Of a stretch of DNA of 64,000 bases, positions 9,575 through 48,858 are shown one piece after another. This stretch comes from Clostridia bacterium (GTDB taxonomy: Bacteria; Bacillota; Clostridia; Oscillospirales; Acutalibacteraceae). Each line of letters opens with the position of its first letter. The first letter of the stretch is position 1. The DNA is taken from the NCBI GenBank assembly GCA_017398425.1, contig JAFQFZ010000039.1:5006-69005 (forward strand). The letters are read 5' to 3'. Both the position numbers and the translations under genes were made by a program. Below the pieces are notes generated by a model. It did no database searches and was not told where the DNA came from. It was given only the letters and a program-made list of their open reading frames with translations.

Positions 9575-12007
9575 TCATCCCAGGAGACTGAGGATGATCT
9601 GACGTGCATCGACGGTGGAGACGGTACCGTCGTGGTTGTAATCGGCGTAGGTGAGTTGTTCTTCGGTAAGTACATTGGGATCGATGGTGTATTTAAGCAC
9701 TTCGCGGCAATCGGTGGTGTTGACCGCGCCGTCCATGGTGACGTCACCGATGTCGTAGGTCGGCTCATCGGGATCGACGGGCGGTTCCACGGGCGGCTCG
9801 ACAACGGGCGGTGCGTTCGGATCGACCGCTGTAATGACGTAGGTGGGCTTACCGGCAAGACCCGGCTTGTGGTAATCAATGCCGTTCTTGTGGCGGTAGA
9901 CCACGCGGTAGAAGGTGTTGGGAGTCAATCCCGTAAAGGTGCCCGATTCCTGCCATGTCTCGCCGCCGTCGATGCTGATATCGTATCCGGTGCGCTCCGA
10001 CACGACGACCGTATCGTGGGTGAAGGACACCAGCGGCGGTACCTGCGAGGTGGCGGTGGTCTTGGTGGTGTATTCTAAGGTGATCGGCTCACTTGTCAGC
10101 GAACCGCGATAACTGCCCGTTGCCGTCACCTTAACGGTGATCTGCGAGCCGATGTACGACACGGCCGGCGTGTAGGTGCTCTTCGTTGCACCCGAGATCG
10201 CTTTGCCGTCGGCGTACCACTGATAGGAGAGCGTCGCGGCGTACGGTTTGACGGTAAACGTACCGGCAGTCAGCGTCGCACGGTATTCGGGAGCGCCGAG
10301 GATCTCCACTTCGCCCGAGATGGTCTTGCCGCTCGCCGTCGCGTAGCCGAACTGCTCGTCCATCCAGGCGATACGACCCTTCATATAGTTCTTCAGATAT
10401 TGCGTCTGCGCAAGCCACGATGTTTCACCGAGCTGAATGGCAGGAACGGAGAGCCACGAGGTGTTCGCGACCGCCGAGTCGTAGTTGTCGTGCCACAGCG
10501 CAAAGTTGTCGTTGGCGGCATCTTCAAGGTAGGGGACAAGACGGTCGATGTCTTCGAAGATCTTCTCAAGGATACCGCGGTCGTGCAGATCGGCCCAGCG
10601 TTTTTCCACCGCTGTGACGAAGCTGTCCATCTCGAACAGATTCTCATACCAGTCGGCGCGTTCGGTTTCGCGCGTGCGCCAACCGGTGGGATCGTCAATC
10701 TTGCTGTAAGCCACGGCACCCGAGCCGAGGTCGAAGTCCCATGCGGGACCCATAAAGAGCTTGCCGTCCTTATCCTTGAACAGCTTGACGCTGGAGAGGA
10801 AGTTGGAGTCGGTGTTTTTGAACGTCTCGTTGATGAGATACCAGTCGATGAAGCCGTCCATGTCGATATAATCCCACACGCGCTCGTCTTGTGCGCGGAT
10901 CAGATCGTTGACGGTTTGCAGATAGGTTTCGATGTAGTTGAGTTGTTCTTTGGAGGGGATCTCCGGCGTTTTGACCTGCACATACAGCTCTTGCTTGGAA
11001 TAGCCGCCGGTGTTTTCGATCACGAAATACGCCGCACCCTCCGATTCGTATTCCGCAAGAACGCGGGAGGAATCCTCGATCTCGAGGTAGTAGCCGACGT
11101 TGCCTTCGGGATAGAGCTGGACATCGTTGTCATCGAATTCGTCGCCGCTTTCGTCGATGGCGATGCGGGTGTCGTCGACCTGCACATGGTCGCCCATGTC
11201 ATACAATCCGAGGTAGGTACCGTTGAGGTACACTTCCACCGGGCGCATGCGCGGCACATAGACTTGGAAACCGGTGGTTTCGGCGGTGAAGGCGCTGAGT
11301 CGCGCACCGAAGCTGTAGGCAACGTCGTTGCGGATGGAAGCGGGATCCAGGAAGTTCGCCAAAAGCACCCAGCTCTTGGCTTTTCCGAGACCGAACACGT
11401 TTTGTTTGCTGTCAAACTTGATGCGATAGGGCTTCTTGTCATACAGCGAGGTGGAGTTGCCGCGCAGTTTGATGCCGCCCGTTGCCGCGATGATGTCCTT
11501 GCCGCCGTAGATGTCCGCACCGAGGACGGAAATCTCCGTCGGAACGTAATTGATCTTGTCGGGAATGGGAGCGTTCTCGGTATCGATGAGCACCACAGGG
11601 ATGCCGTTGTTTTCATCTACGATGGAGATCTGATATTCGGCGCGCGTGTTGTTGCCGTATACGATCAGCTCGTTTTCTTTCTTCAGCGTCACAGCCGTCT
11701 CGCCCGAGGTGATCTCGGTGCCGTTGAAGGTGACGGAATCTCCTTCAAACGCAAACTGCGGGATCAGCTCCGCGCCGACAAGGAGCGGATGGATTTTGGC
11801 GTTTTCCAGCACACGTCCGTCGCAAAGGGCGGTAAATTCCACGTCCCACGCAAGCCAGGCGTTGAGGGATTTCGGGAACGTCAGGGATGTCAGTTGGCAT
11901 CCGTTTTGCCCCCGGTAGACGGTGTAGCTGTCGAATGCCCAAACGGTACTCGGAAGAAGACCGATCAGCATCACGACAGCCAACAGAGTGGCAACGATTT
12001 TTTTCAT
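9575..12007 (-). CDS. cotH: CotH-family atypical kinase with Ig/FN3-like modules and C-terminal dockerin
   Basis: RBS GAGGAGG and a signal peptide. CotH blocks YDKKPYRIKFD, LLANFLDPASIRNDVAYSFG and VYLNGTYLGLYDMGDHV. Dockerin GDVTMDGAVNTTDCREVL / DYNHDGTVSTVDARQIIL. Confidence 0.8.
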   Translation of the reverse strand: MKKIVATLLAVVMLIGLLPSTVWAFDSYTVYRGQNGCQLTSLTFPKSLNAWLAWDVEFTALCDGRVLENAKIHPLLVGAELIPQFAFEGDSVTFNGTEITSGETAVTLKKENELIVYGNNTRAEYQISIVDENNGIPVVLIDTENAPIPDKINYVPTEISVLGADIYGGKDIIAATGGIKLRGNSTSLYDKKPYRIKFDSKQNVFGLGKAKSWVLLANFLDPASIRNDVAYSFGARLSAFTAETTGFQVYVPRMRPVEVYLNGTYLGLYDMGDHVQVDDTRIAIDESGDEFDDNDVQLYPEGNVGYYLEIEDSSRVLAEYESEGAAYFVIENTGGYSKQELYVQVKTPEIPSKEQLNYIETYLQTVNDLIRAQDERVWDYIDMDGFIDWYLINETFKNTDSNFLSSVKLFKDKDGKLFMGPAWDFDLGSGAVAYSKIDDPTGWRTRETERADWYENLFEMDSFVTAVEKRWADLHDRGILEKIFEDIDRLVPYLEDAANDNFALWHDNYDSAVANTSWLSVPAIQLGETSWLAQTQYLKNYMKGRIAWMDEQFGYATASGKTISGEVEILGAPEYRATLTAGTFTVKPYAATLSYQWYADGKAISGATKSTYTPAVSYIGSQITVKVTATGSYRGSLTSEPITLEYTTKTTATSQVPPLVSFTHDTVVVSERTGYDISIDGGETWQESGTFTGLTPNTFYRVVYRHKNGIDYHKPGLAGKPTYVITAVDPNAPPVVEPPVEPPVDPDEPTYDIGDVTMDGAVNTTDCREVLKYTIDPNVLTEEQLTYADYNHDGTVSTVDARQIILSLLG

Positions 12008-12029: not shown

Positions 12030-13433
12030 TCAGTCGTCCCTCTCGGAGGAGAACGACAAAATGTCTCCGTTGGCGGCGTCGATGAGATATTCGTATTCGA
12101 CGCCTCGATATTGAAACTCAAGTGCGTAGCGGATGTGGCCGCCTTGGTTTCTTGTGCGGATGTCCACGCGAATCGACAAATCGGGCACGTTGGCGTGCCG
12201 GAGTGCGATCTCCCGCGCTTGCTCGGCGGTAATGGGCATCGCTTTCGTTGCGGTCGTCGCAACGACCGTTGTCGTCGTGAGCGTTGTGGATTTCATGGTG
12301 GTTGAAGTCGCCGGCGTTGTCGAAGTCACCGTTGTGACCGGTGCGATCGTCGTTGCGGGAACCGATGCTTTGGTGGGGATAGTCACTTTGGTGGGTGCCG
12401 TGGTACGGATCTCCGTAGGACGGACGGTGCTTTCGGGACGGTCGTCCGCTTCTTTCTCCGCTTTCAGGATCGTGCCGTCCACGGCGTGAACGAGATATTC
12501 GTATTCCGTGGATTCAAACGTGAATTCCACTTCATAACACAGGACTCCGTTTTCACAGTCCCACTCCGCTTCCAGCTCGGTCACCGCGTCGGCCGTCAGC
12601 GTGGCATGCGCCAGCGCCGCCGCGGTCGCACGTTCGCGCCCGATGTACGCCCGTTCGCTTGCGTGACCGCGTCCGTGGACGGCAGGGAGCGCGATCTTTT
12701 CTGTCAACAAATGCAGGTCGTTGATCGGAAGTGTCGCCAAGCTCTCGAAGGTCTTAGTTTGGAGCGGATCGGCTTCGAGAATGCGACGCACCAACGCCGC
12801 TTTGCCAAGGCTGATGCCATGGGCATCGGCAAGCGCTTTCAGCTCGTCGTCCTTGACGACACGCTGGCTGAGTACCGCGCCCTCGACCTGTTTGTCGGCC
12901 ATGGTGCCGATCACTTCGTCGGTCAATTGTTGTTGCAACGTTTGCGCGTAGGTGTCATCGTCGTTATCAATGGTGATGAGAACGGAGTTTGCGGTATCGC
13001 TCAGATACCCGCCCTCCACCATAGAATCCACCAGCGCATCCACGGTATCGTTCAGCGAACGATCTTTCCAGTCGGTTTTTGCGAGGATCGCCTCGCCGTC
13101 GGCGTTCAGGGCGCGGACTTCAAGCACGGTTTCTTCTTTGTCCATAGAAATGGATACGCTGGGGTTGACGTCGAGCGAGACGACCGTCTCTGTCTTTGAT
13201 GCGAGGGGTAAGGGAGTATCCCTTCTCGAGAAATGCGAGATCATCGCACCGCCGATCACGGTCAACACCAGGGCGGCGGCGACGCTCATGGCGATATAGC
13301 GCCGAAAATGGGTTATTTTCGGGGGAGACGGAGGCGATTCCTCGCACGCGTCCAAAACTTCCTCGGATAAAGGCGGAACGGATAGCGCACCAAACCCATG
13401 TTGAACGTATTGTTCGATCTGTCGTTTTTTCAT
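12030..13433 (-). CDS. Anti-sigma-like single-pass membrane protein with two PepSY-like domains and a Thr-rich linker
   Basis: Start set at the ATG at 13433, forming an ATGA overlap with the sigma gene stop. TM segment YIAMSVAAALVLTVIGGAMISHF. PepSY-like ends (GVLCYEVEFTFESTEYEYLVHAVDGTIL; IRYALEFQYRGVEYEYLIDAANGDIL). No zf-HC2 motif is present. Confidence 0.65.
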   Translation of the reverse strand: MKKRQIEQYVQHGFGALSVPPLSEEVLDACEESPPSPPKITHFRRYIAMSVAAALVLTVIGGAMISHFSRRDTPLPLASKTETVVSLDVNPSVSISMDKEETVLEVRALNADGEAILAKTDWKDRSLNDTVDALVDSMVEGGYLSDTANSVLITIDNDDDTYAQTLQQQLTDEVIGTMADKQVEGAVLSQRVVKDDELKALADAHGISLGKAALVRRILEADPLQTKTFESLATLPINDLHLLTEKIALPAVHGRGHASERAYIGRERATAAALAHATLTADAVTELEAEWDCENGVLCYEVEFTFESTEYEYLVHAVDGTILKAEKEADDRPESTVRPTEIRTTAPTKVTIPTKASVPATTIAPVTTVTSTTPATSTTMKSTTLTTTTVVATTATKAMPITAEQAREIALRHANVPDLSIRVDIRTRNQGGHIRYALEFQYRGVEYEYLIDAANGDILSFSSERDD

Positions 13434-14002
13434 GCAGTATCCCCTTTTTCTAAAATCACACGTAGCTTCTTCAAAGCGCGGCTGTATTTGGACAGCACGG
13501 TCGGTAACGCGAGATGTAAGATTTGGGCAATTTCGCGATGGCGAAAACCACTCACCGCATGCAACACCACGATCTGTCGTTCTTCGTCGGACAGACGGTT
13601 CATGCAAGCGGACAAGGCCAATCGATCTTCGGTCGTGCACGGTATGCGGTCGTCGATCCATCCTTGCTCATCTTCTTCGGAGAGCGGGGTGGTTTTTTGC
13701 CGTGTGCGCAGCACCTGTACACAACGGTTATGTACAATGGTATAGATCCATGCTTTCGCTTTCCCTTGCGGGCGATAGGTTTTAGTGCCATGCACGATGG
13801 AAAGAAAGCTGTCCTGCAACACGTCCTGCGCGTCGTGCTCGTTTTGCACGACGGACAAGGCATAACCGTAGACCTCCTTGGAGATCGCTTCGTACAGACG
13901 CTGTAAGGCGTCACGGTCTCCCTGTCGTACGCGGTCAAGGAGATCGTCCAAATCCGGTGAGGCTGTGCTGTTCGCTACCGACGTCAAGTAGACTGTCAGC
14001 AC
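13430..14002 (-). CDS. ECF (sigma-70 family) RNA polymerase sigma factor
   Basis: Regions 2 and 4 are recognisable (DALQRLYEAISKEVYGYALSVV; LSDEERQIVVLHAVSGFRHREIAQILHLALPTVLSKYSRALKKL). Start set to the GTG at 14002, 9 nt after AGGAG. The track's TTG at 14011 directly abuts the RBS. Confidence 0.85.
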   Translation of the reverse strand: MLTVYLTSVANSTASPDLDDLLDRVRQGDRDALQRLYEAISKEVYGYALSVVQNEHDAQDVLQDSFLSIVHGTKTYRPQGKAKAWIYTIVHNRCVQVLRTRQKTTPLSEEDEQGWIDDRIPCTTEDRLALSACMNRLSDEERQIVVLHAVSGFRHREIAQILHLALPTVLSKYSRALKKLRVILEKGDTA

Positions 14003-14119
14003 ATTTCTCAACTCCTTTCATATACTTTAACGCGTGAACAAGGCATTTTATTGCACCGAATATAAAAAATTACGCGCCGCGACCGAAATTATCAGCCGCG
14101 ACGCGTTGTCGTTGGTAGA

Positions 14120-15235
14120 TCAGCGTTTGGCGCTGAGACGTTCTTTTTTGGCTTTTTTCGAGAAATAGATCTCGTTGCTGACCACAAAGATCAGCGAGAT
14201 CACCATCACAAGGTAGTAGCTGAGCAGTCGCCAGATCAGCATCACGCTGCTGGCATCGAGTTCAATGGCTTCGGTCACGATCTTCTCACCGATCAAGAAC
14301 ATAATGATGCATTTGAACACCTGACAAGCCGAGCCTTCCGTCGAACCCGAGGCACCGGGTGTGGGGATGAAGCCGACCGCAGTGATGGCAAACGACGTGC
14401 CGCACAGCACCATGAAGAAGTGCGAGAAATTGACGGGGATCCCGAGCGCCAACAGCGCAAAGAAGGTCGAACCGTAGAAGAAGACGAATGCGGCGATCTT
14501 GGTCAGCACCGCCAAGAGGCATTCCTTTTTGTGCTTCATCAGATCCGAAAACGCTTCCTGAACCTGCGTGAAATACTCTTTCGCACCGGCTTCTTTGGAC
14601 TTCAAGAACGCGAGCAAGCGAAACTTGCCGAAGAAGCGGATCATGCGAAGAAGCGCGTTGCGAAGTCCTTTGCTGGTGCCCAGCGCGATCATGATGACCA
14701 TCATCGAGAAGTTCAGCGCATAGCCGATGACAATGACGGGAATGAACGCAGGGTCGATGTGAGCGGTCAACTCCTCAAAATAGAACAAGCCGAGCAGCGA
14801 AAAACCGGTCGTCACGATCATGTAAATGATGAGGTTGGTGAGCAACAGACCGGTCGATTCGCCGATCTTCACCTTTGCGCGGGAGAAGGAGTGCGCCTGG
14901 AACGGTTGACCGCCTGTCGCGAGCGGCGTGATGCCGTTGAAGAAAAACTCCGTCATCGCGATCGAATAGGTCAGCTTGCCGGAGATCTTGCATCCGCGCG
15001 CCTTGGTGAGAATGCACAGCGACAGCGGATACAACGCCATGTACACAAGAAGCATGCAGGCACCCAGCAGGATGTACACCGGGTTGGCAGAAGCGAGCTT
15101 TTCCATAATACCCGGCAGGTCGTTGAACGACAACACCGTAAAGAACAGACACACCGCAATCAGCGCATACACCAAGAACAAGACGATCTTTTTTGCGCTG
15201 AGAGGGTTTTTTTGAGACGAATTATCCAAAACCAT
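14120..15235 (-). CDS. Polytopic membrane protein, lysyl-phosphatidylglycerol-synthase TM / flippase-like (UPF0104) family
   Basis: About 8 predicted TM helices. Architecture and length are typical of the MprF-TM-like family. Start set at the ATG at 15235, because a TTGACG-17-TATAAT promoter covers the track's TTG at 15313. Confidence 0.55.
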   Translation of the reverse strand: MVLDNSSQKNPLSAKKIVLFLVYALIAVCLFFTVLSFNDLPGIMEKLASANPVYILLGACMLLVYMALYPLSLCILTKARGCKISGKLTYSIAMTEFFFNGITPLATGGQPFQAHSFSRAKVKIGESTGLLLTNLIIYMIVTTGFSLLGLFYFEELTAHIDPAFIPVIVIGYALNFSMMVIMIALGTSKGLRNALLRMIRFFGKFRLLAFLKSKEAGAKEYFTQVQEAFSDLMKHKKECLLAVLTKIAAFVFFYGSTFFALLALGIPVNFSHFFMVLCGTSFAITAVGFIPTPGASGSTEGSACQVFKCIIMFLIGEKIVTEAIELDASSVMLIWRLLSYYLVMVISLIFVVSNEIYFSKKAKKERLSAKR

Positions 15236-15284
15236 GCTCCTTTCACAGCAAGGCAGAACACCGCTGAGATATGTAGTACAGTAT

Positions 15285-15313
15285 ATTATACCGAATAATT
15301 CGTGATTCGTCAA
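15285..15313 (-). promoter_or_regulatory. Sigma-70-type promoter for the flippase-like gene
   Basis: The minus strand reads TTGACG, 17 nt, TATAAT. Confidence 0.6.
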
Positions 15314-15363: not shown

Positions 15364-15405
15364 CTCCCGAAAGCGTCACCGAATCCTCGATGACGCTTTC
15401 GGGAG
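15364..15405 (-). terminator. Long hairpin just downstream of the 15408 gene (possible terminator)
   Basis: A 15-bp stem, ctcccgaaagcgtca...tgacgctttcgggag, with no clean U-run. Confidence 0.45.
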
Positions 15406-15407
15406 GG

Positions 15408-16379
15408 TCAGTCGACGGAAAGATGGACAAAGTTTCCGCTGAAAGACCACACGAAGTCCTCCTCCGGATTGCTTGAGGAAGAGATAAAGTTCAAATCCGA
15501 AATGAGGATTTCGGAATAGGAGGCAGGTGCCAGTGCTTTGAACGTGAGTCGGAAGAGCGGTTCGCCGTTTGTGTGGTTGCCGACCGAGCGGTGCGTGTCA
15601 AATTCGATGCGCACCGTGCCGTCTTCCGATTTGGAGGACGAAAACGCCGTGCCGTCCGGGAAGGCGGTGGCGGCGATGCCGTTTACATAGGGGTTTTGGA
15701 CACCCTCGCCGTTGACTGCGACCAATTCCATCACGTTCGCGTCGTAGGCGACGGTGAGCGAGCCTTTCACAAGGCAGGTCGTTCCGTTTGAGGAAAACGG
15801 GACGGTAAACAGCTCACCGACCGTTCCCACGGTTTCTACGGGAGAAAAGCGGACGAAGTGTACGATCGCTCCGAGCGGCGGCAACATACCACCATCGTGT
15901 TTTGTGGTTGTGGTGGTTGAAGGAACGGTGGTCGGGGAGGTGCTTCCCGTTGTAGAGACCGCGGTCGGCACGGTGGTCGGCGGCACGGTGGTCGGCGGCA
16001 CGGTGGTCCCGACGGTCGTTTGCACTGTAGTGTCGACTGTTGTGACGACGGTGCGGTCGGTGTCCTGCGTTACTTCGGTAGAGCCGGTGGTGGAGACGGC
16101 GGAGACGTCGGTCGATTCGCTCGAAGGCGGAGATGTTGTGTCATGCGGTGAAACGACGGTCGTCGTAACGGACGTAGGAATGGTCGTGGTGGTATCGGTG
16201 CCGAGCGGCACGGGTGTGCGATTGGCAGTGAAAAAGGTGGTTACCACCAACGCCATGGCACCGCAGAGCACGGCACCGCCGCAGATGGCGCGTGTGCGAC
16301 GACGCACCTTGGCAATGTGAATGATGCGTTCTTCACCGCGGCGGTGAATTTCTTGCTTCAACTCTTGCAAATCTCTCAA
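15408..16379 (-). CDS. Single-pass membrane protein: short basic cytoplasmic tail, TM, Thr/Pro-rich linker, C-terminal cohesin-like domain (putative anti-sigma-like partner)
   Basis: TTG start 7 nt after GGAGG, overlapping the sigma stop (TTGA). TM segment AICGGAVLCGAMALVVTTFF. The C-terminal ~150 aa follow the cohesin pattern (GELFTVPFSSNG..LVKGSLTVAYDANVMELVAV...DGTVRIEFD...GEPLFRLTFKAL). Confidence 0.55.
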   Translation of the reverse strand: MRDLQELKQEIHRRGEERIIHIAKVRRRTRAICGGAVLCGAMALVVTTFFTANRTPVPLGTDTTTTIPTSVTTTVVSPHDTTSPPSSESTDVSAVSTTGSTEVTQDTDRTVVTTVDTTVQTTVGTTVPPTTVPPTTVPTAVSTTGSTSPTTVPSTTTTTKHDGGMLPPLGAIVHFVRFSPVETVGTVGELFTVPFSSNGTTCLVKGSLTVAYDANVMELVAVNGEGVQNPYVNGIAATAFPDGTAFSSSKSEDGTVRIEFDTHRSVGNHTNGEPLFRLTFKALAPASYSEILISDLNFISSSSNPEEDFVWSFSGNFVHLSVD

Positions 16380-16921
16380 AACGGCACCTCCTCTCTCGAT
16401 AACAGTTCTTTGAGTTCTTTGCGTGCGCGATACAGCAGGTTGTCTATCTGTTTGGCGCTTTTCTTCATGACGCGCCCCGCGTCCTCGTAGGACAGATCCT
16501 CGAAGTACACTAAGTGTACCGCACTTTGCATGTCGGACGACAATTTTTCGATCGCGGCGGCCAGCGCCAGTGACTGATCGGATTTTTCGATGGGGTTTGC
16601 CTCTTGTGCTTCGTCGATCAACTCGCTGACGTCGGCAAAGCTGTGCGTGTTGCGCCGCTTATGATGGCGCAGATACGTCAGCGCACGGCTGCGACCGACC
16701 ATGAAAACGTACGTTTTCAATGACACCTTGAAGTTGTAGCGATACTTGTAGGCAAACAATTCAACAAAGGTGTCCACGGCAATGTCCTCAGCCGCTTGAT
16801 AATCCTGCACATAGCGATTCAGATAGTTCACAAGCTTGTGGAACATATCGTCCACGATGGCGTCGAATGCGTCTTTATCGCCGTCTATGTAGCGTTGATA
16901 GTGTTCGGCGTTGGTATCCAT
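16376..16921 (-). CDS. ECF (sigma-70 family) RNA polymerase sigma factor
   Basis: RBS GGAAAGGAG. Region 2 (DAFDAIVDDMFHKLVNYLNRYV..AEDIAVDTFVELF) and region 4 (YFEDLSYEDAGRVMKKSAKQIDNLLYRARKELK). Confidence 0.85.
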   Translation of the reverse strand: MDTNAEHYQRYIDGDKDAFDAIVDDMFHKLVNYLNRYVQDYQAAEDIAVDTFVELFAYKYRYNFKVSLKTYVFMVGRSRALTYLRHHKRRNTHSFADVSELIDEAQEANPIEKSDQSLALAAAIEKLSSDMQSAVHLVYFEDLSYEDAGRVMKKSAKQIDNLLYRARKELKELLSREEVPF

Positions 16922-17039
16922 ACGGCTCTCCTTTCCTGCGGAAAACGTCTCACTCTTTATACGACTGCAGAGAGGGGGATTTCCTTATAAAATATCTTTT
17001 TTTTTCAAAATTCGACCTTCGTACTCATGAAAAAGCGGC

Positions 17040-17075
17040 AAGCACCGTGGTGCTTGCCGCAAAAACGAAATGCAG
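17040..17075 (-). terminator. Terminator after pyrE
   Basis: gcggcaagcac/gtgcttgccgc hairpin, followed by TTTTT on the minus strand. Confidence 0.8.
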
Positions 17076-17078
17076 AGG

Positions 17079-17732
17079 TTATTTCGCGCCGTTGACCGCC
17101 AAATAATTCTTGATGCGAGTCACGTTCTCTTCGTTGGCGGGATCTTCTTCGAGGTACTCGATGATGTCGTACACGTCGACGACCGAGTACACAGGGAAGC
17201 CGAATTGCTCGGCGATCTCCTGCATCGCGCCCTTTTCGGTCTGACCCTTTTCTTTGCGGTCGACCATGATGAAGGTCGCAATGACCTTGGTGCCGTCGAG
17301 GTGGCTGAGGATCTCCATCGACTCGCGGATCGCCGTGCCGGCGGTGATGACGTCCTCGATGATGACGATCTCTTCGCCCGCTTGCGGGACATAGCCGACA
17401 AACATGCCGCCTTCGCCGTGATCCTTGACTTCCTTACGGTTGAAGAAGAAGGGGACGTTCAAGCCGTTCTTGGACAGCGCGACCGCCGCCGAGATGGACA
17501 GCGAAATGCCCTTGTACGCAGGACCGTACAGTACCGCATCCTTCTTGCCCAGCTTGTCGAAATACGCCTTGGCGTAAAACTCGCCCATCTTGGTGATCTG
17601 GTCACCGGTCTTGATCATACCGGCGTTGACGAAATAGGGGATCTTGCGACCGGATTTGGCGGTGAAGTCACCGAACTTCAGCACGCCCGCTTCTTGCAAG
17701 AACTCAATAAACTCTCTTTTGTACGCTTCCAT
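17079..17732 (-). CDS. pyrE: Orotate phosphoribosyltransferase
   Basis: MEAYKREFIEFLQEAGVLKFGDFTAKSGRKIPYFVNAG and the PRPP-binding loop IVIIEDVITAGTA. Confidence 0.9.
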   Translation of the reverse strand: MEAYKREFIEFLQEAGVLKFGDFTAKSGRKIPYFVNAGMIKTGDQITKMGEFYAKAYFDKLGKKDAVLYGPAYKGISLSISAAVALSKNGLNVPFFFNRKEVKDHGEGGMFVGYVPQAGEEIVIIEDVITAGTAIRESMEILSHLDGTKVIATFIMVDRKEKGQTEKGAMQEIAEQFGFPVYSVVDVYDIIEYLEEDPANEENVTRIKNYLAVNGAK

Positions 17733-23117: not shown

Positions 23118-26100
23118 TCAGCTTCCCGATACGGTTTTGAACAGACGAAGCGCGTCCATCATATTGATGGTGCCGTCTCCCGTATAATCCGCGATCGCTT
23201 CTTGTTCCGCGGTCATCTCTCTGGCACCGTTGACGCAACCGAAGAGAAGCAGCGCATCCATCGTGTTGAGCATACCGTCTCCGTTCATGTCGCCCAGAAG
23301 CGCGGCCGTGCCGACGGTGATCTCAACGTAATCGTATTCGTCGAATCCCGTCGTGCCGTCCCACGGGGTCATCGCGTCACTGCCGTATTCGCTGACTGTC
23401 ACCGTGGCGCCGTCAGCGATCGACACATCGCACCATGCGATCGCGTAATCGATGGGTGTACGGGCAATGAGCGTGCCGCCGTTGACCGTCACCGGCGGAT
23501 AATCGTCGCCGTTGATGCCGCACTGCGGCCCGTACACGTCCAGTGTGCCGCCGTTCACCGTCAGGCTTTTATACAGCCAGAGGCCGTCGTATTTATTGTC
23601 CTTCACGACAACCGTGCCGCTGTTCACCGTGACGTCGCCCGTTGCAAAAATTCCTTCGCCGTTCGTGATCAGCGTCAAGTCGCCGTCACCCTCCAACGTC
23701 AGCGAGCTGCCGGTGACGATGCCGTTGGCGTTCGGCGACGTCAGTGTCGAGGACAGCTCCGTCTTGATTGTCAGCGGGTGATAGGCGTCAACCATGTTAT
23801 AATCGCCCTGCGCTGTCCACGTAAAATCATGCAGCGTCAGTACGCCGTCTTTGTAGTAGGCGTAGCCTGCGTCCTTGTCAACAGTATCTTCGGTTCGGAC
23901 ACCCCAATGATCGCTGTCGAGATACAGGCCGTCCCGCAACCACATACCGCCGACGAACACGCCGTCGACGTTTTTGGCAAGTTCGAAGGTGCGTGCCGCT
24001 TCGACCGTGTTCACGGCACCGTCATCCGTGTTGCTGTCGGTCGAATAGACAAAGCTTGCGGGAACGCCGTCCACGGTGACGTTAACGGCAAGGGTGCCTT
24101 CGTTATCGGTGGCAAACCAACCGCCGTCGTACGTTTCCAACGTCGCGTACACCTGATGGCGGCGATCGGATTTGAACTTACCGTCCAGTCGGCTGAAGCC
24201 GGCTCCCGCCGTACCCGGATTGGTTTCATAGTACCACTCCAGCCCCGTGTAATTTACAAGGTCGGTTTTGACGACTGCGTCGCTGTCGGGTGTTTTGCCG
24301 CCGATCGGATACTGCACGTCCACGATCTCGATATCGGTGATGCACGAGGCGGTGTCGTATTCGGCGTACACAACCGCCGCTTCATCCGTCAGATAATAAT
24401 ATTGTGCGAACTCGCCGTTGAGCACCGCACCGCGGGAGTCAAGATTGATGGACCGTCCCGCAGACGGAAGGAGACGGATCTCGACCCGATACACGGTGTT
24501 CTTCTTGAAGCATTCCTCATAGGAAAGCGAAGCGATCCGATATCCGTTGTCATCCAGCTCATACCACGTCACACCGCCGAATTGTGTGTAGGGACTGCTG
24601 ATCGTCACGTTAAAGTCGGGCGCTTGTCCCGGCGCAGGGCGCATCAGTTCGCCGATCTCCGCATAATCGGTCACACCCGTATAGGAAGCCTCCCCAAGCT
24701 CACCGTATGCCCACAGAACGCTCGCCGTACATCCGTCATCACTAACAACGATGTTCAGACCGGTAGAGCCGTCATAACCGTTATACAGGGTTTCGTTGCC
24801 GTTGACCGATCCGCGGATCACGGCGGTCTGTGCAAACGTATACGGTTCTGCCGCTTCCACGGTATACACCGCGCTGTACGTATTTCCTTTTCGGAACGTC
24901 GTGTTCTCGGCCATCGTATGGCCGTTTTCGATCCACGTCACGCCGGTGACGGTGGCATAGGGCATCAACGCTTCCGTCAGCGACGCGTCGGCATAGGGGC
25001 GCTGTCCGACGGACGGTGCCACCGCGCCGATAACGTCGATGCGGTTGATCGGATCCGGTAAGGAAGCGAGCGGAATATAAAGCGCGGCCACCTGGATCTG
25101 TTTTGAAGATACCGGCTGAAAGTTCGTTTGAACCGCACCGCGGACAGACACGTTGAGCGGTTGCTCGTCCGTTGAAAAGTCACTCAAAGAATCCGCGGAT
25201 ACGCCGACCACCCACGCATAGAGGTAACCTTCTTCAAAAACGTCATTTACGGTCAGCTCACGGATCTCGGATTCGTTCTCGCTGATGCGCAACCACGTAA
25301 GATCTACGGATTCTTTAGCGGCGGGAATATCCTCTTTGTATCCGTATTCTACGGTGGCCACCGTATCCACCTTGTTTCCGACTACGGGAGTACGGATATC
25401 GGTGAAGGTGATATCCTCAATGGTACGGGACGTGCTGTTACAGGCGGGAAAATCAAATGTGACCTGCACGATCTGTGCAGGACTTTGATCGCCGTACGGT
25501 TCCACTCGTGCAGGCAATCCGTTGACAGTGGCACGGATATACGGATCGACCGTGCCGTCCTCGTGCAAAAGGTAACAAAGGCGCGTGCTGTCCTGGAAAA
25601 TCGATTTGGCTTTCACCAGTACCGTGACGCTGTAGTCGGCGCCCTCGTTGAACACCGAATTGCTGTTACACGTGAAATGATTTGTGCGGTTGACCCATTT
25701 GACACCGTCATAAAACCCGTTCGCGGTCACGGGTGCGTATTCGCAGTTTTCGCCGTAAAGTGTCGGCGCGTACGACGCTTTTTTGCCTGCCACGGGATAC
25801 GGGATATTCAGACCGATACGGTCGGCACCGCCGCCGAGAACATCGGTGTCGGCGCAGGTGAATTTGGTGCGAAGCTTCAAGTAGCGGCTCTGATCCTCTT
25901 CTTGCGCCGAGATATTGACAGCCTCAATGCCTTCAACGGTTGCGTTTACGGCACTTTCTCCGCCTTCGGTGGCAAAACGGTAAGGATCTTTGGCTCTCAG
26001 CTGTATTTCCATGGTATAGGTTTCGCCCGCTTTAAAGGTATCGGTTTCGTCTAAAATGGAATACGTATTGCTGTTATACCACGCAACGCCGTTGATAAAC

Positions 26101-26684
26101 GCCGTGCCTGCGTAAGGATCGATCTCCATACGCTCGTGATCGTACGCCAGTGTAAAGACGGGAGCTTCCCCTGCAACGGGGCGAAGATTACCGCCGACCG
26201 CCACTTCGGCAATATCGGGAGGCGGATTTTTACATACCCCGAAATCGTATGTCACCACGGCCTTACTGGCATAGCCGTTCGTAACGACGGCAGGTTCGCC
26301 GTTGACCGTTGCTTCCAATGAGGAAGAAAATTGATAGAAATAGTTTTGGACGTACACGGCCACGTGCACCGTATATGCGTGTCCCGCGACGAAAAGTTCT
26401 CCTTCCTCCAGATAACGTCCGTCGGTATAATCGTACCAACCGACACCGCGATGGTAATGGAGATTGTCTTTCTGCTCCACATATACACGCGCGGCGTTGG
26501 TCGGCAACGCACCGACTCCGACGTCAAAGTCCGCTTCACGCCCTGCCATCGGTGCCTCGGCGTATACTTTTAAAAAAGTCAATGTGTCAATATGCAGTCC
26601 GTCGGCCAACGCTGACAGCGGCAATGCATTACACAGCATGAACAAAACCGCAACAACGGCGGTTATCGCTTTCTGCATTTTCAT
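23118..26684 (-). CDS. 1188-aa secreted modular protein: ~8 reiterated ~120-aa beta-sandwich-like modules, a beta-helix-like segment and a C-terminal dockerin
   Basis: RBS AAAGGAGG and signal peptide MKMQKAITAVVAVLFMLCNALPLSALA. Modules repeatedly end in ..ATVNG.PA.V. The segment LTLEGDGDLTLITNGEGIFATGDVTVNSGTVVV..LTVNGGTLDV is beta-helix-like. Dockerin GDMNGDGMLNTMDALLLF / DYTGDGTINMMDALRLF. Confidence 0.75.
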   Translation of the reverse strand: MKMQKAITAVVAVLFMLCNALPLSALADGLHIDTLTFLKVYAEAPMAGREADFDVGVGALPTNAARVYVEQKDNLHYHRGVGWYDYTDGRYLEEGELFVAGHAYTVHVAVYVQNYFYQFSSSLEATVNGEPAVVTNGYASKAVVTYDFGVCKNPPPDIAEVAVGGNLRPVAGEAPVFTLAYDHERMEIDPYAGTAFINGVAWYNSNTYSILDETDTFKAGETYTMEIQLRAKDPYRFATEGGESAVNATVEGIEAVNISAQEEDQSRYLKLRTKFTCADTDVLGGGADRIGLNIPYPVAGKKASYAPTLYGENCEYAPVTANGFYDGVKWVNRTNHFTCNSNSVFNEGADYSVTVLVKAKSIFQDSTRLCYLLHEDGTVDPYIRATVNGLPARVEPYGDQSPAQIVQVTFDFPACNSTSRTIEDITFTDIRTPVVGNKVDTVATVEYGYKEDIPAAKESVDLTWLRISENESEIRELTVNDVFEEGYLYAWVVGVSADSLSDFSTDEQPLNVSVRGAVQTNFQPVSSKQIQVAALYIPLASLPDPINRIDVIGAVAPSVGQRPYADASLTEALMPYATVTGVTWIENGHTMAENTTFRKGNTYSAVYTVEAAEPYTFAQTAVIRGSVNGNETLYNGYDGSTGLNIVVSDDGCTASVLWAYGELGEASYTGVTDYAEIGELMRPAPGQAPDFNVTISSPYTQFGGVTWYELDDNGYRIASLSYEECFKKNTVYRVEIRLLPSAGRSINLDSRGAVLNGEFAQYYYLTDEAAVVYAEYDTASCITDIEIVDVQYPIGGKTPDSDAVVKTDLVNYTGLEWYYETNPGTAGAGFSRLDGKFKSDRRHQVYATLETYDGGWFATDNEGTLAVNVTVDGVPASFVYSTDSNTDDGAVNTVEAARTFELAKNVDGVFVGGMWLRDGLYLDSDHWGVRTEDTVDKDAGYAYYKDGVLTLHDFTWTAQGDYNMVDAYHPLTIKTELSSTLTSPNANGIVTGSSLTLEGDGDLTLITNGEGIFATGDVTVNSGTVVVKDNKYDGLWLYKSLTVNGGTLDVYGPQCGINGDDYPPVTVNGGTLIARTPIDYAIAWCDVSIADGATVTVSEYGSDAMTPWDGTTGFDEYDYVEITVGTAALLGDMNGDGMLNTMDALLLFGCVNGAREMTAEQEAIADYTGDGTINMMDALRLFKTVSGS

Positions 26685-47967: not shown

Positions 47968-48021
47968 GCGTTTTTTGCAAGTTTTTGGTTCAAAAAATGC
48001 AAAAAATTTTTAAAAACCGTA

Positions 48022-48050
48022 ATGACTTTTTTGTCTTTTTGTTGTATAAT
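48022..48050 (+). promoter_or_regulatory. Possible promoter of the 48088 gene
   Basis: ATGACT, 17 nt, TATAAT. Confidence 0.45.
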
Positions 48051-48087: not shown

Positions 48088-48858
48088 ATGAAAAAATGGA
48101 TTTGCTTGATTTTGAGCTTTACACTGACCTTAACGATGGCAGTGATTCCGATGACAGCGTTTTCCGCATCGCACATCGTTTCGACCGAAAATCCCGCGTT
48201 TACCTATGAGATCCTTGAGGACGAAACGATTCGCATTCGCGGCGTTAACTCCCGAATGGTGCAGTCGTATCCTTTGGTGATCCCCGAAACGCTTGACGGT
48301 TACACCGTGACGATGGTCGGCGGTTTTGACCTTCCGAAACCGGGCGGACTCGTGTTGCCGAAGACGGTGAAGCATCTGTATGAATGGTCTTTCGAGGGAT
48401 TGTATGTCGGAGAGCTCTATCTCCCTGAGGGATTGGAAACGATCTCTTATCACATTTACGATGAAGGAGACAACATTGTCATCCCGCGATCCGTCACCTC
48501 CATCGAGATGCGTGCGTTCGGATGGGGTGGCACACCAACCACCCTTGCGGGGCAACCCCTGCCGCCCGGCACCATCACGCATACACCGGGATTTACCGTG
48601 TATTCCGACGGCAATGAGGTGGCGCGCGCCTATGCGGAGTCGGAGGGGCACGACTATGTAGATCTGAGCACCTTTGCGCGAGGCGATATGGATTTGAACG
48701 CAACAACGAATACGATGGATGCCTTGACGGTGTTGTCGATCGCGAGCGGCGATCAATACGGCACGGCGGTACACCGTGTGATGGCGGACGTCGACCGCAA
48801 CGATACCATCAATATGATGGACGCGCTTTTGGTGTATCGAGAGGCCTCCGGTGAATAA
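48088..48858 (+). CDS. Secreted BspA-type leucine-rich-repeat protein with C-terminal dockerin
   Basis: ATG after GGAGG. Signal peptide MKKWICLILSFTLTLTMAVIPMTAFSA. LRR_5-like IPETLDGYTVTMVGG..LPKTVKHLYEWSFEG..LPEGLETIS..IPRSVTSIEMRAF. Dockerin GDMDLNATTNTMDALTVL / DVDRNDTINMMDALLVY. Confidence 0.7.
   Translation: MKKWICLILSFTLTLTMAVIPMTAFSASHIVSTENPAFTYEILEDETIRIRGVNSRMVQSYPLVIPETLDGYTVTMVGGFDLPKPGGLVLPKTVKHLYEWSFEGLYVGELYLPEGLETISYHIYDEGDNIVIPRSVTSIEMRAFGWGGTPTTLAGQPLPPGTITHTPGFTVYSDGNEVARAYAESEGHDYVDLSTFARGDMDLNATTNTMDALTVLSIASGDQYGTAVHRVMADVDRNDTINMMDALLVYREASGE

What the first reader, a model, noticed from the sequence alone, without database searches (positions are those of the whole stretch)
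15408..16921. ECF sigma factor translationally coupled to a membrane protein that displays a cohesin-like domain
The sigma gene stop and the downstream start overlap (TTGA), which is the usual sigma/anti-sigma arrangement. The partner lacks a zf-HC2 or other recognisable anti-sigma domain. It has only a ~28-aa basic cytoplasmic tail, one TM helix and a Thr/Pro linker. Its ~150-aa extracellular domain follows the cohesin pattern (GELFTVPF..KGSLTVAYDANVMELVAV..DGTVRIEFD..GEPLFRLTFKAL). Known carbohydrate-sensing anti-sigma proteins of cellulosome producers (RsgI type) carry CBM or GH-like sensors. A cohesin as the outward-facing module would mean the ligand is a dockerin-bearing protein. That implies either sensing of the cell's own or foreign dockerin proteins, or sigma-linked surface anchoring. 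I am not aware of a described example.
Basis: partly seen in the sequence, partly recalled or inferred. Interest (0 to 1): 0.8.

Follow-up and report, generated by a model that had tools for sequence, protein, structure and literature searches.

The report
ECF sigma paired with membrane-anchored cohesin
A gut Clostridia bacterium couples a stress-type sigma factor gene to a membrane protein that displays a genuine cohesin, so a cell-surface protein-docking module may be wired directly to gene regulation, which has not been described before.

Summary
On the minus strand, an ECF sigma gene (16376-16921) overlaps by 4 nt (TTGA) a 323-aa gene (15408-16379). That gene encodes a 30-aa basic cytoplasmic tail, one TM helix, a 113-aa Thr/Pro/Ser/Val-rich linker and a C-terminal beta-sandwich.

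Pfam misses the domain, but it is a real, divergent cohesin:
- An orthologue passes the Pfam Cohesin threshold.
- Family profiles put solved cohesins at the top.
- The best 50 PDB matches of the AlphaFold model are all cohesins.

The pair belongs to a large, undescribed clostridial sigma/partner family. In 88 loci:
- the partner overlaps the sigma stop by 4 nt in 71;
- every partner has the same roughly 25-aa basic N-terminal motif followed by a TM helix;
- the ectodomain varies (unknown domains, serpin, Thr-rich only), and is a cohesin in only four lineages.

A family-specific promoter (ATAAGGAAT / TCGTATAAT) precedes the sigma gene. In the closest orthologue a second copy precedes an adjacent LRR-dockerin gene.

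The anti-sigma role and any dockerin sensing are inferred, not shown. The N-terminal module matches no known anti-sigma domain. I rate this a new variant of a known kind, of moderate to high interest.

The parts
16956..16988 (-). ECF-type promoter of the operon (ATAAGGAAA-N14-GTCGTATAAA). It matches the family consensus: -35 ATAAGGAAT, -10 TCGTATAAT.
   Evidence: The motif is present in 73 of 85 upstream regions of family sigma genes. The window site scores 27.5 bits; the highest score in 20 shuffles of the window was 20.2.
17035..17060 (-). Intrinsic terminator of the upstream pyrE-like gene. It marks the 5' boundary of the sigma operon.
   Evidence: An 11-bp GC-rich stem followed by TTTTT. 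The upstream gene 17079-17732(-) carries a Pribosyltran domain in the near-identical locus L002.
16376..16921 (-). ECF (group IV) sigma-70 factor, 181 aa. NCBI accession MBQ4617513.1.
   Evidence: Sigma70_r2 and Sigma70_r4_2; TIGR02937 at 77 bits, above the 42.9 cut-off.
16387..16391 (-). Shine-Dalgarno sequence (GGAGG), 7 nt upstream of the partner's TTG start and inside the end of the sigma gene.
   Evidence: Read directly from the sequence.
15408..16379 (-). Partner gene, 323 aa, TTG start overlapping the sigma stop (TTGA). NCBI accession MBQ4617512.1, annotated 'hypothetical protein'.
   Evidence: The start is supported by the conserved N-terminus MR[DN] in the orthologues, which use ATG, TTG or GTG starts.
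16290..16379 (-). Cytoplasmic N-terminal module, residues 1-30 (MRDLQELKQEIHRRGEERIIHIAKVRRRTR). It is the hallmark of the partner family and the putative sigma-binding (anti-sigma) segment.
   Evidence: It is the most conserved region: 60% identical to the orthologues, against 31-38% for the cohesin. The motif MRxLxExKAEIFRRSExRI recurs in partners of the family. It has no Pfam or PDB match.
16227..16289 (-). Single transmembrane helix, residues 31-51. It acts as a signal anchor with the N-terminus inside.
   Evidence: Hydropathy scan: all 73 non-redundant family partners have a TM segment starting at residues 23-46 (median about 26) after a net-positive segment.
15888..16226 (-). Linker, residues 52-164, rich in Thr, Val, Pro and Ser. 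It includes TTVPP repeats.
   Evidence: Composition. The strain variant P0001 is 5 residues shorter and has one TTVPP unit fewer.
15414..15881 (-). Divergent cohesin domain, residues 167-322.
   Evidence: HMM envelope. Orthologue P0002 hits Pfam Cohesin at 33.4 bits, above the 24.1 cut-off. Profiles hit solved cohesins. For the AF2 model, the Foldseek top 50 are all cohesins, with target-normalised TM-score up to 0.74.
15364..15405 (-). Perfect 19-bp hairpin starting 3 nt after the partner stop codon. It is the likely operon end, although no T-tract follows.
   Evidence: RNA fold energy -39.2 kcal/mol, z = -5.7. The next gene (LPG_synthase_TM, 14120-15313) has its own TTGACG-17-TATAAT promoter.

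Best explanation
This is a two-gene, self-regulated ECF sigma operon.

The second gene encodes a single-pass membrane protein with its N-terminus inside the cell. Its 30-aa basic, probably helical N-terminus is the family-specific module that most likely holds the sigma factor at the membrane, in the manner of an anti-sigma factor. Its ectodomain is a roughly 110-aa Thr/Pro-rich linker that could reach into or across the cell wall, ending in a genuine but divergent cohesin.

The protein is therefore at once a membrane-anchored, single-cohesin scaffoldin and the input or sequestration component of the sigma switch. The cohesin most likely docks one or more dockerin-bearing surface proteins. Removal or proteolysis of the ectodomain, or a change in cohesin occupancy, would free the sigma factor. 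The free sigma would then raise transcription of its own operon and, in relatives, of an adjacent dockerin-bearing protein. That would couple surface-complex assembly to transcription.

Shown:
- the ECF sigma;
- the 4-nt coupling and its conservation;
- the membrane topology by hydropathy;
- the cohesin fold and homology;
- the conserved promoter;
- the second promoter copy before a dockerin gene in L001.

Inferred:
- sigma binding by the tail;
- dockerin binding by the cohesin;
- any link between cohesin occupancy and sigma release.
For: Sigma:
- It is an ECF sigma.

Conservation of the pair:
- The sigma/partner pair with a 4-nt overlap is conserved in L001 (an Acutalibacteraceae MAG; sigma 72% identical), L003/L004 (72%), L005 (60%) and L006 (54%).
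- The overlap is present in 71 of 88 family loci.

Partner N-terminus:
- All 73 non-redundant partners have a net-positive N-terminal segment of about 25 aa followed by one TM helix.
- The motif MRxLxExKAEIFRRSExRI recurs while the ectodomains differ. That pattern is typical of anti-sigma families.
- The N-terminal 30 aa are the best conserved part of the protein, at 60% identity against 31-38% for the cohesin.

Cohesin:
- phmmer against 1.84 billion representative proteins finds P0002 and P0003 with the same architecture, and bona fide Cohesin(+Dockerin) proteins P0019 and P0029-P0031 (Pfam).
- Profile A1 hits 38 PDB sequences at E<=1, 37 of them cohesin-containing proteins; several of the best matches (E 1e-5 to 2e-4) span the whole domain.
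- The three-member subfamily profile alone puts cohesins in the top 8 PDB hits.
- The AF2 model has a 9-strand sandwich, pTM 0.61-0.63. Foldseek gives 36 hits at E<1e-3, all cohesins.

Promoter and regulon:
- The family promoter is conserved and unique in the window.
- In L001, ATAAGGGAAA-N10-GCGGTCGAATAA occurs twice. One copy precedes the sigma gene. The other lies 68 nt before an LRR_5 + dockerin gene directly downstream of the cohesin gene.
- In L006 the gene 15 nt after the cohesin partner has an N-terminal dockerin-like module (E 2e-12). The L005 third gene also carries a dockerin.
Against: - The N-terminal module matches no known anti-sigma domain in Pfam or PDB. At about 25-30 aa it is shorter than class I anti-sigma domains. 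No interaction test was possible.
- The window protein itself fails the Pfam Cohesin model. The AF2 models are of only moderate confidence (pLDDT 59-63).
- In the window the operon ends in a hairpin with no third gene. No second promoter copy exists within the 64 kb.
- In L003 the homologous downstream LRR protein carries SLH domains, not a dockerin. In L005 the partner has no cohesin although the next gene has a dockerin. The cohesin-next-to-dockerin pairing is therefore not strict.
- Dockerin genes are frequent in these genomes: five in this 64-kb window. Some adjacency is expected by chance.
- No evidence bears on signal transduction.
Confidence: 0.5

Rival explanations
1. The protein is only an anchoring scaffoldin. 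It is a membrane-tethered, monovalent scaffoldin that pins dockerin proteins to the cell. It may still sequester the sigma through its tail, but the cohesin has no sensory role. The sigma would respond to generic envelope signals or simply co-express the anchor.
For: - Transmembrane-anchored single cohesins are already reported as putative anchoring scaffoldins in Ruminococcus species (PMC13463774; PMC11557425).
- Other family members carry effector-like ectodomains. Serpin is fused to the partner in L055 and L072, and is encoded as a separate third gene in 19 of 56 loci. This suggests the ectodomain can be a displayed effector ('cargo') rather than a sensor.
- A long Thr/Pro linker is typical of displayed modules.
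Against: - It does not explain why the anchor shares a conserved cytoplasmic motif and strict translational coupling with an ECF sigma across 88 loci.
- In L001 the sigma-type promoter drives a dockerin protein, which links regulation to cohesin ligands.
Confidence: 0.3
2. The partner is not an anti-sigma factor. It is merely the first target gene of the sigma. The basic N-terminus plus hydrophobic segment would be an unusually long signal anchor with no sigma contact.
For: No homology to any anti-sigma domain. The cytoplasmic part is very short.
Against: - The sequence of the tail, not just its charge, is conserved across partners with unrelated ectodomains.
- The 4-nt start/stop overlap in 71 of 88 loci is the classic arrangement for producing two proteins in fixed proportion.
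- No other candidate anti-sigma gene is present in the operon.
Confidence: 0.12
3. The domain has a cohesin fold but its ligand is not a dockerin. It could bind a glycan, a host or dietary protein, or another module type, and would act as a conventional sensor.
For: - Identity to characterised cohesins is low (10-19% in Foldseek alignments).
- The loop at residues ~230-255 of the protein is modelled with low confidence.
- Non-cellulosomal cohesin-like modules exist in the PDB hits, for example C. perfringens GH84 (2jh2, 2o4e).
Against: - Its nearest non-orthologous relatives are Cohesin+Dockerin adaptor proteins of the same bacterial group.
- The window encodes five dockerin proteins and no other cohesin.
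- Dockerin genes are adjacent in L001, L005 and L006.
Confidence: 0.08

Closest known systems
RsgI/SigI biomass-sensing anti-sigma systems of cellulosome producers (Acetivibrio thermocellus and relatives)
   Same: Both involve a membrane-spanning partner of an alternative sigma factor in a cohesin/dockerin-using clostridial bacterium. In both, the N-terminus is cytoplasmic, there is one TM helix, and an extracellular module belongs to the cellulosome toolbox (PMC6582324, PMC10328401, PMC11557425).
   Different: - The sigma here is a canonical ECF sigma (r2 + r4_2), not SigI.
- The partner has no RsgI_N and no autoproteolytic RsgI_M domain.
- The sensor position is occupied by a cohesin, a protein-binding module, instead of a CBM, PA14 or GH module.
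- A true RsgI_M + PepSY protein with its own sigma lies about 2 kb away at 12030-14011.
Membrane-anchored single-cohesin 'anchoring scaffoldins' of Ruminococcus and other Clostridia
   Same: A single cohesin is attached to the lipid bilayer by one TM helix, in genomes rich in dockerin proteins (PMC13463774; PMC11557425).
   Different: - Where the two papers state the position, the TM helix is C-terminal. Neither paper mentions a link between these proteins and a sigma factor.
- Here the anchor is N-terminal, carries a conserved cytoplasmic motif, and is translationally coupled to an ECF sigma.
Classical single-pass ECF anti-sigma factors (RsiW, RsiV, RseA type) released by regulated intramembrane proteolysis
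   Same: Operon order sigma then partner, start/stop overlap, N-in single-pass topology, variable extracytoplasmic domain, and an autoregulated promoter.
   Different: The cytoplasmic part is only about 25-30 aa and has no ASD or zf-HC2 homology. In size it is closer to the minimal class II anti-sigma domains (CnrY, NepR; from my own knowledge), but no sequence similarity was found.
Monovalent Cohesin-Dockerin adaptor proteins (about 240 aa) of Oscillospirales metagenomes (P0029, P0030, P0039-P0075)
   Same: These are the closest sequence relatives of the cohesin outside the orthologues (24-31% identity). They share motifs: G-D/E-x-h-x-V-P near the start (h = hydrophobic), Y-D-P-x-x-L-E, N-P-Y/F, and F-T-L-T-F-K.
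   Different: They are secreted proteins with a signal peptide and a C-terminal dockerin. They have no TM anchor. Their genomic context, including any sigma link, was not examined.

Membership tests
Cohesin (Pfam PF00963) | Sequence match to the Pfam Cohesin model above the gathering score | tested here: not met
   The window protein gives no Pfam hit even at E<=1. Its orthologue P0002 (E 4.9e-22 to the window domain) scores 33.4 bits, above the 24.1 cut-off. More distant phmmer hits P0019 and P0029-P0031 also pass. Membership therefore rests on transitive homology.
Cohesin (Pfam PF00963) | Profile-level homology to experimentally solved cohesins | tested here: met
   Profile A1 hits 38 PDB sequences at E<=1, 37 of them cohesin-containing proteins; the best is 1.8e-8, and full-length alignments reach about 1e-5. 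The profile of the three sigma-linked proteins alone puts cohesins in the top 8 hits (E 0.0026-0.026).
Cohesin (Pfam PF00963) | Nine-stranded beta-sandwich (jelly-roll) fold | tested here: met
   The AF2 models have 9 strands and pTM 0.61-0.63, but pLDDT of only 59-63. In Foldseek against PDB, 36 hits at E<1e-3 and the top 50 are all cohesins, with target-normalised TM-scores of 0.55-0.74.
Cohesin (Pfam PF00963) | Calcium-dependent binding of a dockerin | not testable with these tools
   No complex prediction or binding assay was available. Five candidate dockerins lie in the window.
ECF (group IV) sigma-70 factors | Only the sigma-2 and sigma-4 regions; match to the ECF superfamily model | tested here: met
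   Sigma70_r2 (37 bits) and Sigma70_r4_2 (39 bits). TIGR02937 scores 77.2 bits, above the 42.9 cut-off. The protein is 181 aa.
ECF (group IV) sigma-70 factors | Conserved, probably autoregulated promoter upstream of the sigma operon | tested here: met
   The consensus ATAAGGAAT-N13/14-TCGTATAAT occurs in 73 of 85 family upstream regions. The window site at 16956-16988 scores 27.5 bits. That the sigma itself uses this promoter is inferred.
Anti-sigma factors (class I ASD / zf-HC2, RsgI) | Recognisable anti-sigma domain (ASD, zf-HC2, RskA, RsgI_N) | tested here: not met
   No Pfam or NCBIfam hit. A 42-sequence N-terminal alignment finds no anti-sigma factor: its profile in PDB and each member scanned against Pfam. 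One member gave a weak DUF3379 hit (E 0.0087) and one a weak RseC_MucC hit (E 0.017).
Anti-sigma factors (class I ASD / zf-HC2, RsgI) | Gene directly downstream of, and translationally coupled to, the sigma gene; conserved across species | tested here: met
   The TTGA overlap is present here. A 4-nt overlap is present in 71 of 88 loci.
Anti-sigma factors (class I ASD / zf-HC2, RsgI) | Single-pass topology: conserved cytoplasmic N-terminus and variable extracytoplasmic C-terminus | tested here: met
   Hydropathy and charge in 73 non-redundant partners. Ectodomains found: cohesin, serpin, Thr-rich only, and unknown.
Anti-sigma factors (class I ASD / zf-HC2, RsgI) | Direct binding and inhibition of the cognate sigma | not testable with these tools
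No multimer prediction was available.
Anchoring scaffoldin | Cohesin joined to a cell-surface anchoring device (SLH, sortase signal or TM helix) | tested here: met
   An N-terminal TM helix, a 113-aa linker and a cohesin. No SLH domain or LPXTG motif was detected (sequence).

The most novel reading that the evidence does not exclude
Cohesin-dockerin binding is used as a signalling input. The membrane protein reports whether its cohesin is occupied by a dockerin-bearing surface protein. Some of those proteins are transcribed from the sigma's own promoter, as in L001. The protein would release or retain the ECF sigma accordingly. This would be an assembly checkpoint, or feedback loop, for cell-surface cohesin-dockerin complexes. 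It would belong to a large, undescribed clostridial ECF family whose minimal 25-aa anti-sigma module is fused to interchangeable protein-binding ectodomains (cohesin, serpin).
Probability: 0.3. Interest if true: 0.85.

Novelty: new variant of a known kind. Interest (0 to 1): 0.62.

Why it matters
Regulation of cohesin-dockerin systems outside the RsgI/SigI paradigm is essentially unknown. [quoted passage not shown]

A sigma/partner pair whose extracellular module is itself a cohesin would give a direct, testable route from surface-complex assembly to transcription, in gut Clostridia of the Acutalibacteraceae kind.

It also exposes a large, unannotated ECF sigma/partner family. The family has a defined promoter and a minimal N-terminal module that no database recognises. 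Its ectodomains include serpins as well as cohesins.

In practical terms, the family promoter motif allows regulon prediction in complete genomes. The cohesin is also a candidate membrane anchor for dockerin-tagged proteins.

Tried and rejected
1. Direct Pfam and NCBIfam scans of the partner, and phmmer against PDB, gave no hits. Homology had to be established through orthologues and profiles.

2. The exhaustive phmmer search returned about 30 large multi-repeat proteins. I first suspected they were multi-cohesin scaffoldins. The twelve I checked against Pfam are all WD40 proteins, and the rest match the same short stretch. They match only the short 'DGTVRxxD' stretch (query residues ~70-115), so I rejected them as spurious.

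3. The single-sequence AF2 model gave cohesin top hits but TM-scores of only 0.3-0.46. It was replaced by the alignment-based model.

4. The metagenome scan using the partner's N-terminal patterns found no relatives. The genome scan found only L001. The sigma alignment was used instead.

5. A search for further sigma-type promoters in the window found none. This covered regular expressions and a position-weight matrix built from 64 non-redundant family promoters. Nothing exceeded the shuffle range. The 17.5-bit site at 48019-48050, in front of a small LRR/dockerin-like ORF, lacks the invariant GG of the -35 box and looks like a sigma-70 promoter. The site at 24861-24891 lies inside a coding region.

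6. The position-weight matrix misses the L001 and L003 promoters because their -35 box reads AAGGGAAA. They were compared by eye and by exact matching instead.

7. The ECF reclassification paper gave no group assignment for this sigma.

8. A lipoprotein or cleaved-signal-peptide reading of the N-terminus was rejected. The segment before the hydrophobic helix is 30 aa long and conserved in sequence, and there is no lipobox or AxA-type cleavage site (sequence).
Full report
**Observation**

Both genes lie on the minus strand. The sigma gene spans 16376-16921 (181 aa). The partner spans 15408-16379 (323 aa, TTG start). The two share the four bases TTGA, and a GGAGG Shine-Dalgarno sequence lies 7 nt before the TTG.

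The sigma has Sigma70_r2 and Sigma70_r4_2 and passes the ECF superfamily model TIGR02937 (77 bits against a cut-off of 42.9).

The partner has no Pfam or NCBIfam hit even at E<=1.
- a 30-aa basic tail;
- a 21-aa hydrophobic helix;
- a 113-aa linker that is 37% Thr, 15% Val, 12% Pro and 12% Ser;
- a beta-rich domain of about 160 aa.

NCBI holds the protein as MBQ4617512.1, 'hypothetical protein [Clostridia bacterium]'.

**Is the C-terminal domain a cohesin?**

An exhaustive phmmer search of 1.84 billion representative proteins gave 38 hits.
- The best three are a 98%-identical strain variant (P0001) and two proteins with the same architecture (P0002 at E 4.9e-22; P0003 at E 9.5e-18).
- P0002 passes Pfam Cohesin (33.4 bits against a cut-off of 24.1).
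- P0019, P0029, P0030 and P0031 are Pfam Cohesin proteins, and three of them also carry dockerins.
- About 30 of the remaining hits are large multi-repeat proteins. The twelve I checked against Pfam are all WD40 proteins, and the rest match the same stretch. They match only the short DGTVRxxD stretch, so I discarded them.

A profile of the eight cohesin-like domains hits 38 PDB sequences at E<=1, 37 of them cohesin-containing proteins; several of the best matches (E 1e-5 to 2e-4) span the whole domain. A profile of just the three sigma-linked proteins still puts cohesins in the top eight places.

An alignment-based AlphaFold2 model reached pLDDT 59 and pTM 0.61 and shows a 9-strand sandwich. 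Foldseek against PDB gave 36 matches at E<1e-3. These, and the whole top 50, are cohesins of types I, II and III and of the C. perfringens kind. Target-normalised TM-scores reach 0.74.

I conclude that the domain is a genuine but divergent cohesin. It is the only cohesin in the window, which also encodes five dockerin ORFs.

**Is the pairing with the sigma meaningful?**

The sigma has two 72%-identical orthologues. One lies in an Acutalibacteraceae MAG (L001). The other lies in metagenome contigs L003/L004. Each is followed, with the same 4-nt overlap, by a cohesin-bearing partner (P0003 and P0002).

Two more distant relatives show variations.
- A 54%-identical sigma (L006) is followed by a 384-aa partner with the same N-terminus, a Thr-rich linker and a cohesin (HMM E 7e-19).
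- A 60%-identical sigma (L005) has a partner with the same N-terminus and linker but no cohesin.

Beyond these lies a large family. The search returned 2,882 sigma hits at E<1e-20, and the best 120 are at least 49% identical. I collected 80 further loci from metagenomes. Across the 88 loci examined:
- the partner ORF overlaps the sigma stop by 4 nt in 71;
- all 73 non-redundant partners have a net-positive N-terminal segment of about 25 aa followed by a TM helix starting at residues 23-46;
- the tail carries a recurring motif, MRxLxExKAEIFRRSExRI, with E10 and R14 at least 90% conserved.

The ectodomains differ. They include unknown domains, serpins fused directly to the partner (L055, L072), Thr-rich sequence only, and cohesin in just four lineages.

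In the cohesin subgroup the tail is the best conserved region, at 60% identity against 31-38% for the cohesin.

A conserved cytoplasmic module, one TM helix and a variable outside domain is the standard anatomy of an anti-sigma family. However, the module matches no known anti-sigma domain in Pfam or PDB. No binding test was possible. The anti-sigma role is therefore an inference from comparative genomics.

**Operon and promoter**

A terminator ends the upstream pyrE-like gene at 17035-17060.

A motif lies 35 nt upstream of the sigma start, at 16956-16988. It is shared by 73 of 85 family upstream regions, with consensus -35 ATAAGGAAT and -10 TCGTATAAT. The window site scores 27.5 bits, and nothing else in the window exceeds the shuffled controls.

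A perfect 19-bp hairpin (-39 kcal/mol, z = -5.7) starts 3 nt after the partner stop codon. The next gene (LPG_synthase_TM) has its own sigma-70-type promoter.

In this genome the operon therefore holds just the two genes.

**Link to dockerins in relatives**

In L001 the promoter sequence ATAAGGGAAA-N10-GCGGTCGAATAA occurs twice. One copy precedes the sigma gene. The other lies 68 nt before the gene directly downstream of the cohesin gene. An exact 22-base match at fixed spacing in 16 kb is far beyond chance. That downstream gene encodes a BspA-type LRR protein with a C-terminal dockerin.

In L006 the gene 15 nt after the cohesin partner has an N-terminal dockerin-like module (E 2e-12). In L005 the next gene also has a dockerin and shares a C-terminal domain with the L006 protein.

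Three points count against a strict rule.
- In L003 the homologous LRR protein (36-38% identical) carries SLH domains instead of a dockerin.
- L005 has a dockerin gene but no cohesin on its partner.
- Dockerin genes are common in these genomes.

**Mechanism**

I think the protein most likely sequesters the ECF sigma through its short tail while displaying a cohesin on a linker that could reach into or across the cell wall. The cohesin would dock dockerin-bearing surface proteins, some of them transcribed from the sigma's own promoter type.

Whether cohesin occupancy controls sigma release is unproven. The plainer reading is a membrane-anchored scaffoldin that happens to be built on an anti-sigma chassis, and it remains a serious rival.

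Serpins in this family occur both fused to the partner and as separate third genes, in 19 of 56 loci. This shows that the chassis is used with protein-binding ectodomains. It is compatible with both readings.

**Comparison with known systems**

- RsgI/SigI systems share the general logic. They use a different sigma type and a different N-terminal domain, have an autoproteolytic RsgI_M domain, and use carbohydrate-binding sensors. A real RsgI_M + PepSY protein with its own sigma lies next door at 12030-14011.
- Transmembrane-anchored single cohesins have recently been reported in Ruminococcus as putative anchoring scaffoldins. Neither paper mentions a link to a sigma factor (PMC13463774; PMC11557425).
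- Searches of the held library for cohesin together with anti-sigma terms, and term searches inside three of the papers, found no description of such a fusion.

**Verdict**

The cohesin assignment is well supported. The anti-sigma role is probable. Dockerin sensing is plausible but untested. I rate the finding a new variant of a known kind, with interest 0.62.

Noticed in passing
window 12030-14011 (-): A second sigma/anti-sigma pair lies about 1.4 kb downstream of the cohesin gene. It comprises an ECF-type sigma (13430-14011) and a membrane protein with RsgI_M (101 bits) and two PepSY domains (12030-13436). A CotH-kinase + dockerin protein follows at 9575-12007.
   Followed up: partly
L007, L010, L016, L023, L037 and others (third gene); L055:4549-6786 and L072:4558-6024 (fused): The wider sigma family is strongly associated with serpins. 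In 19 of 56 loci the gene after the partner is a serpin; the two read in full (L007, L010) have a lipoprotein-like signal. In 4 loci the serpin is fused to the partner's tail and TM helix. I found no description of an ECF sigma / membrane protein / serpin operon.
   Followed up: partly
L001:8630-8661 and L001:8727-9863: A second, near-identical copy of the L001 sigma promoter precedes a BspA-type LRR_5 + dockerin gene. Its homologue in L003 (6571-8448) has the same LRR region but three SLH domains in place of the dockerin. This is a swap of the surface-anchoring module.
   Followed up: yes
window ~15950-16000 (linker region of the partner): Linker length varies between strains. The 98%-identical protein P0001 (318 aa) is 5 residues shorter and has one TTVPP unit fewer in the linker.
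   Followed up: no
L005:5543-6154: The partner of a 60%-identical sigma has the family N-terminus, a TM helix and a 150-aa Thr-rich tail, but no cohesin or other globular domain. The next gene (806 aa) nevertheless carries an internal dockerin.
   Followed up: partly
window 48089-48858 (+): A small secreted protein with weak LRR_5 and weak dockerin matches, distantly similar to the L001 LRR-dockerin protein (27% over 174 aa). Its upstream region looks like a sigma-70 promoter, not the ECF motif.
   Followed up: partly
window 23118-26684 (-): An 1188-aa protein with a Cthe_2159-like carbohydrate-binding domain and a dockerin. Of the window's dockerins, this one is most similar to the dockerins next to the cohesin genes in L001 and L005 (42-45% identity). 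That makes it the first candidate ligand to test.
   Followed up: no
one search hit list (P0004-P0038): A short stretch of the cohesin (SEDGTVRIEFD) mimics the WD40 repeat signature. It drew roughly 30 WD40 proteins into an exhaustive phmmer search at E as low as 3e-13. This is a caution for automated annotation of the domain.
   Followed up: yes
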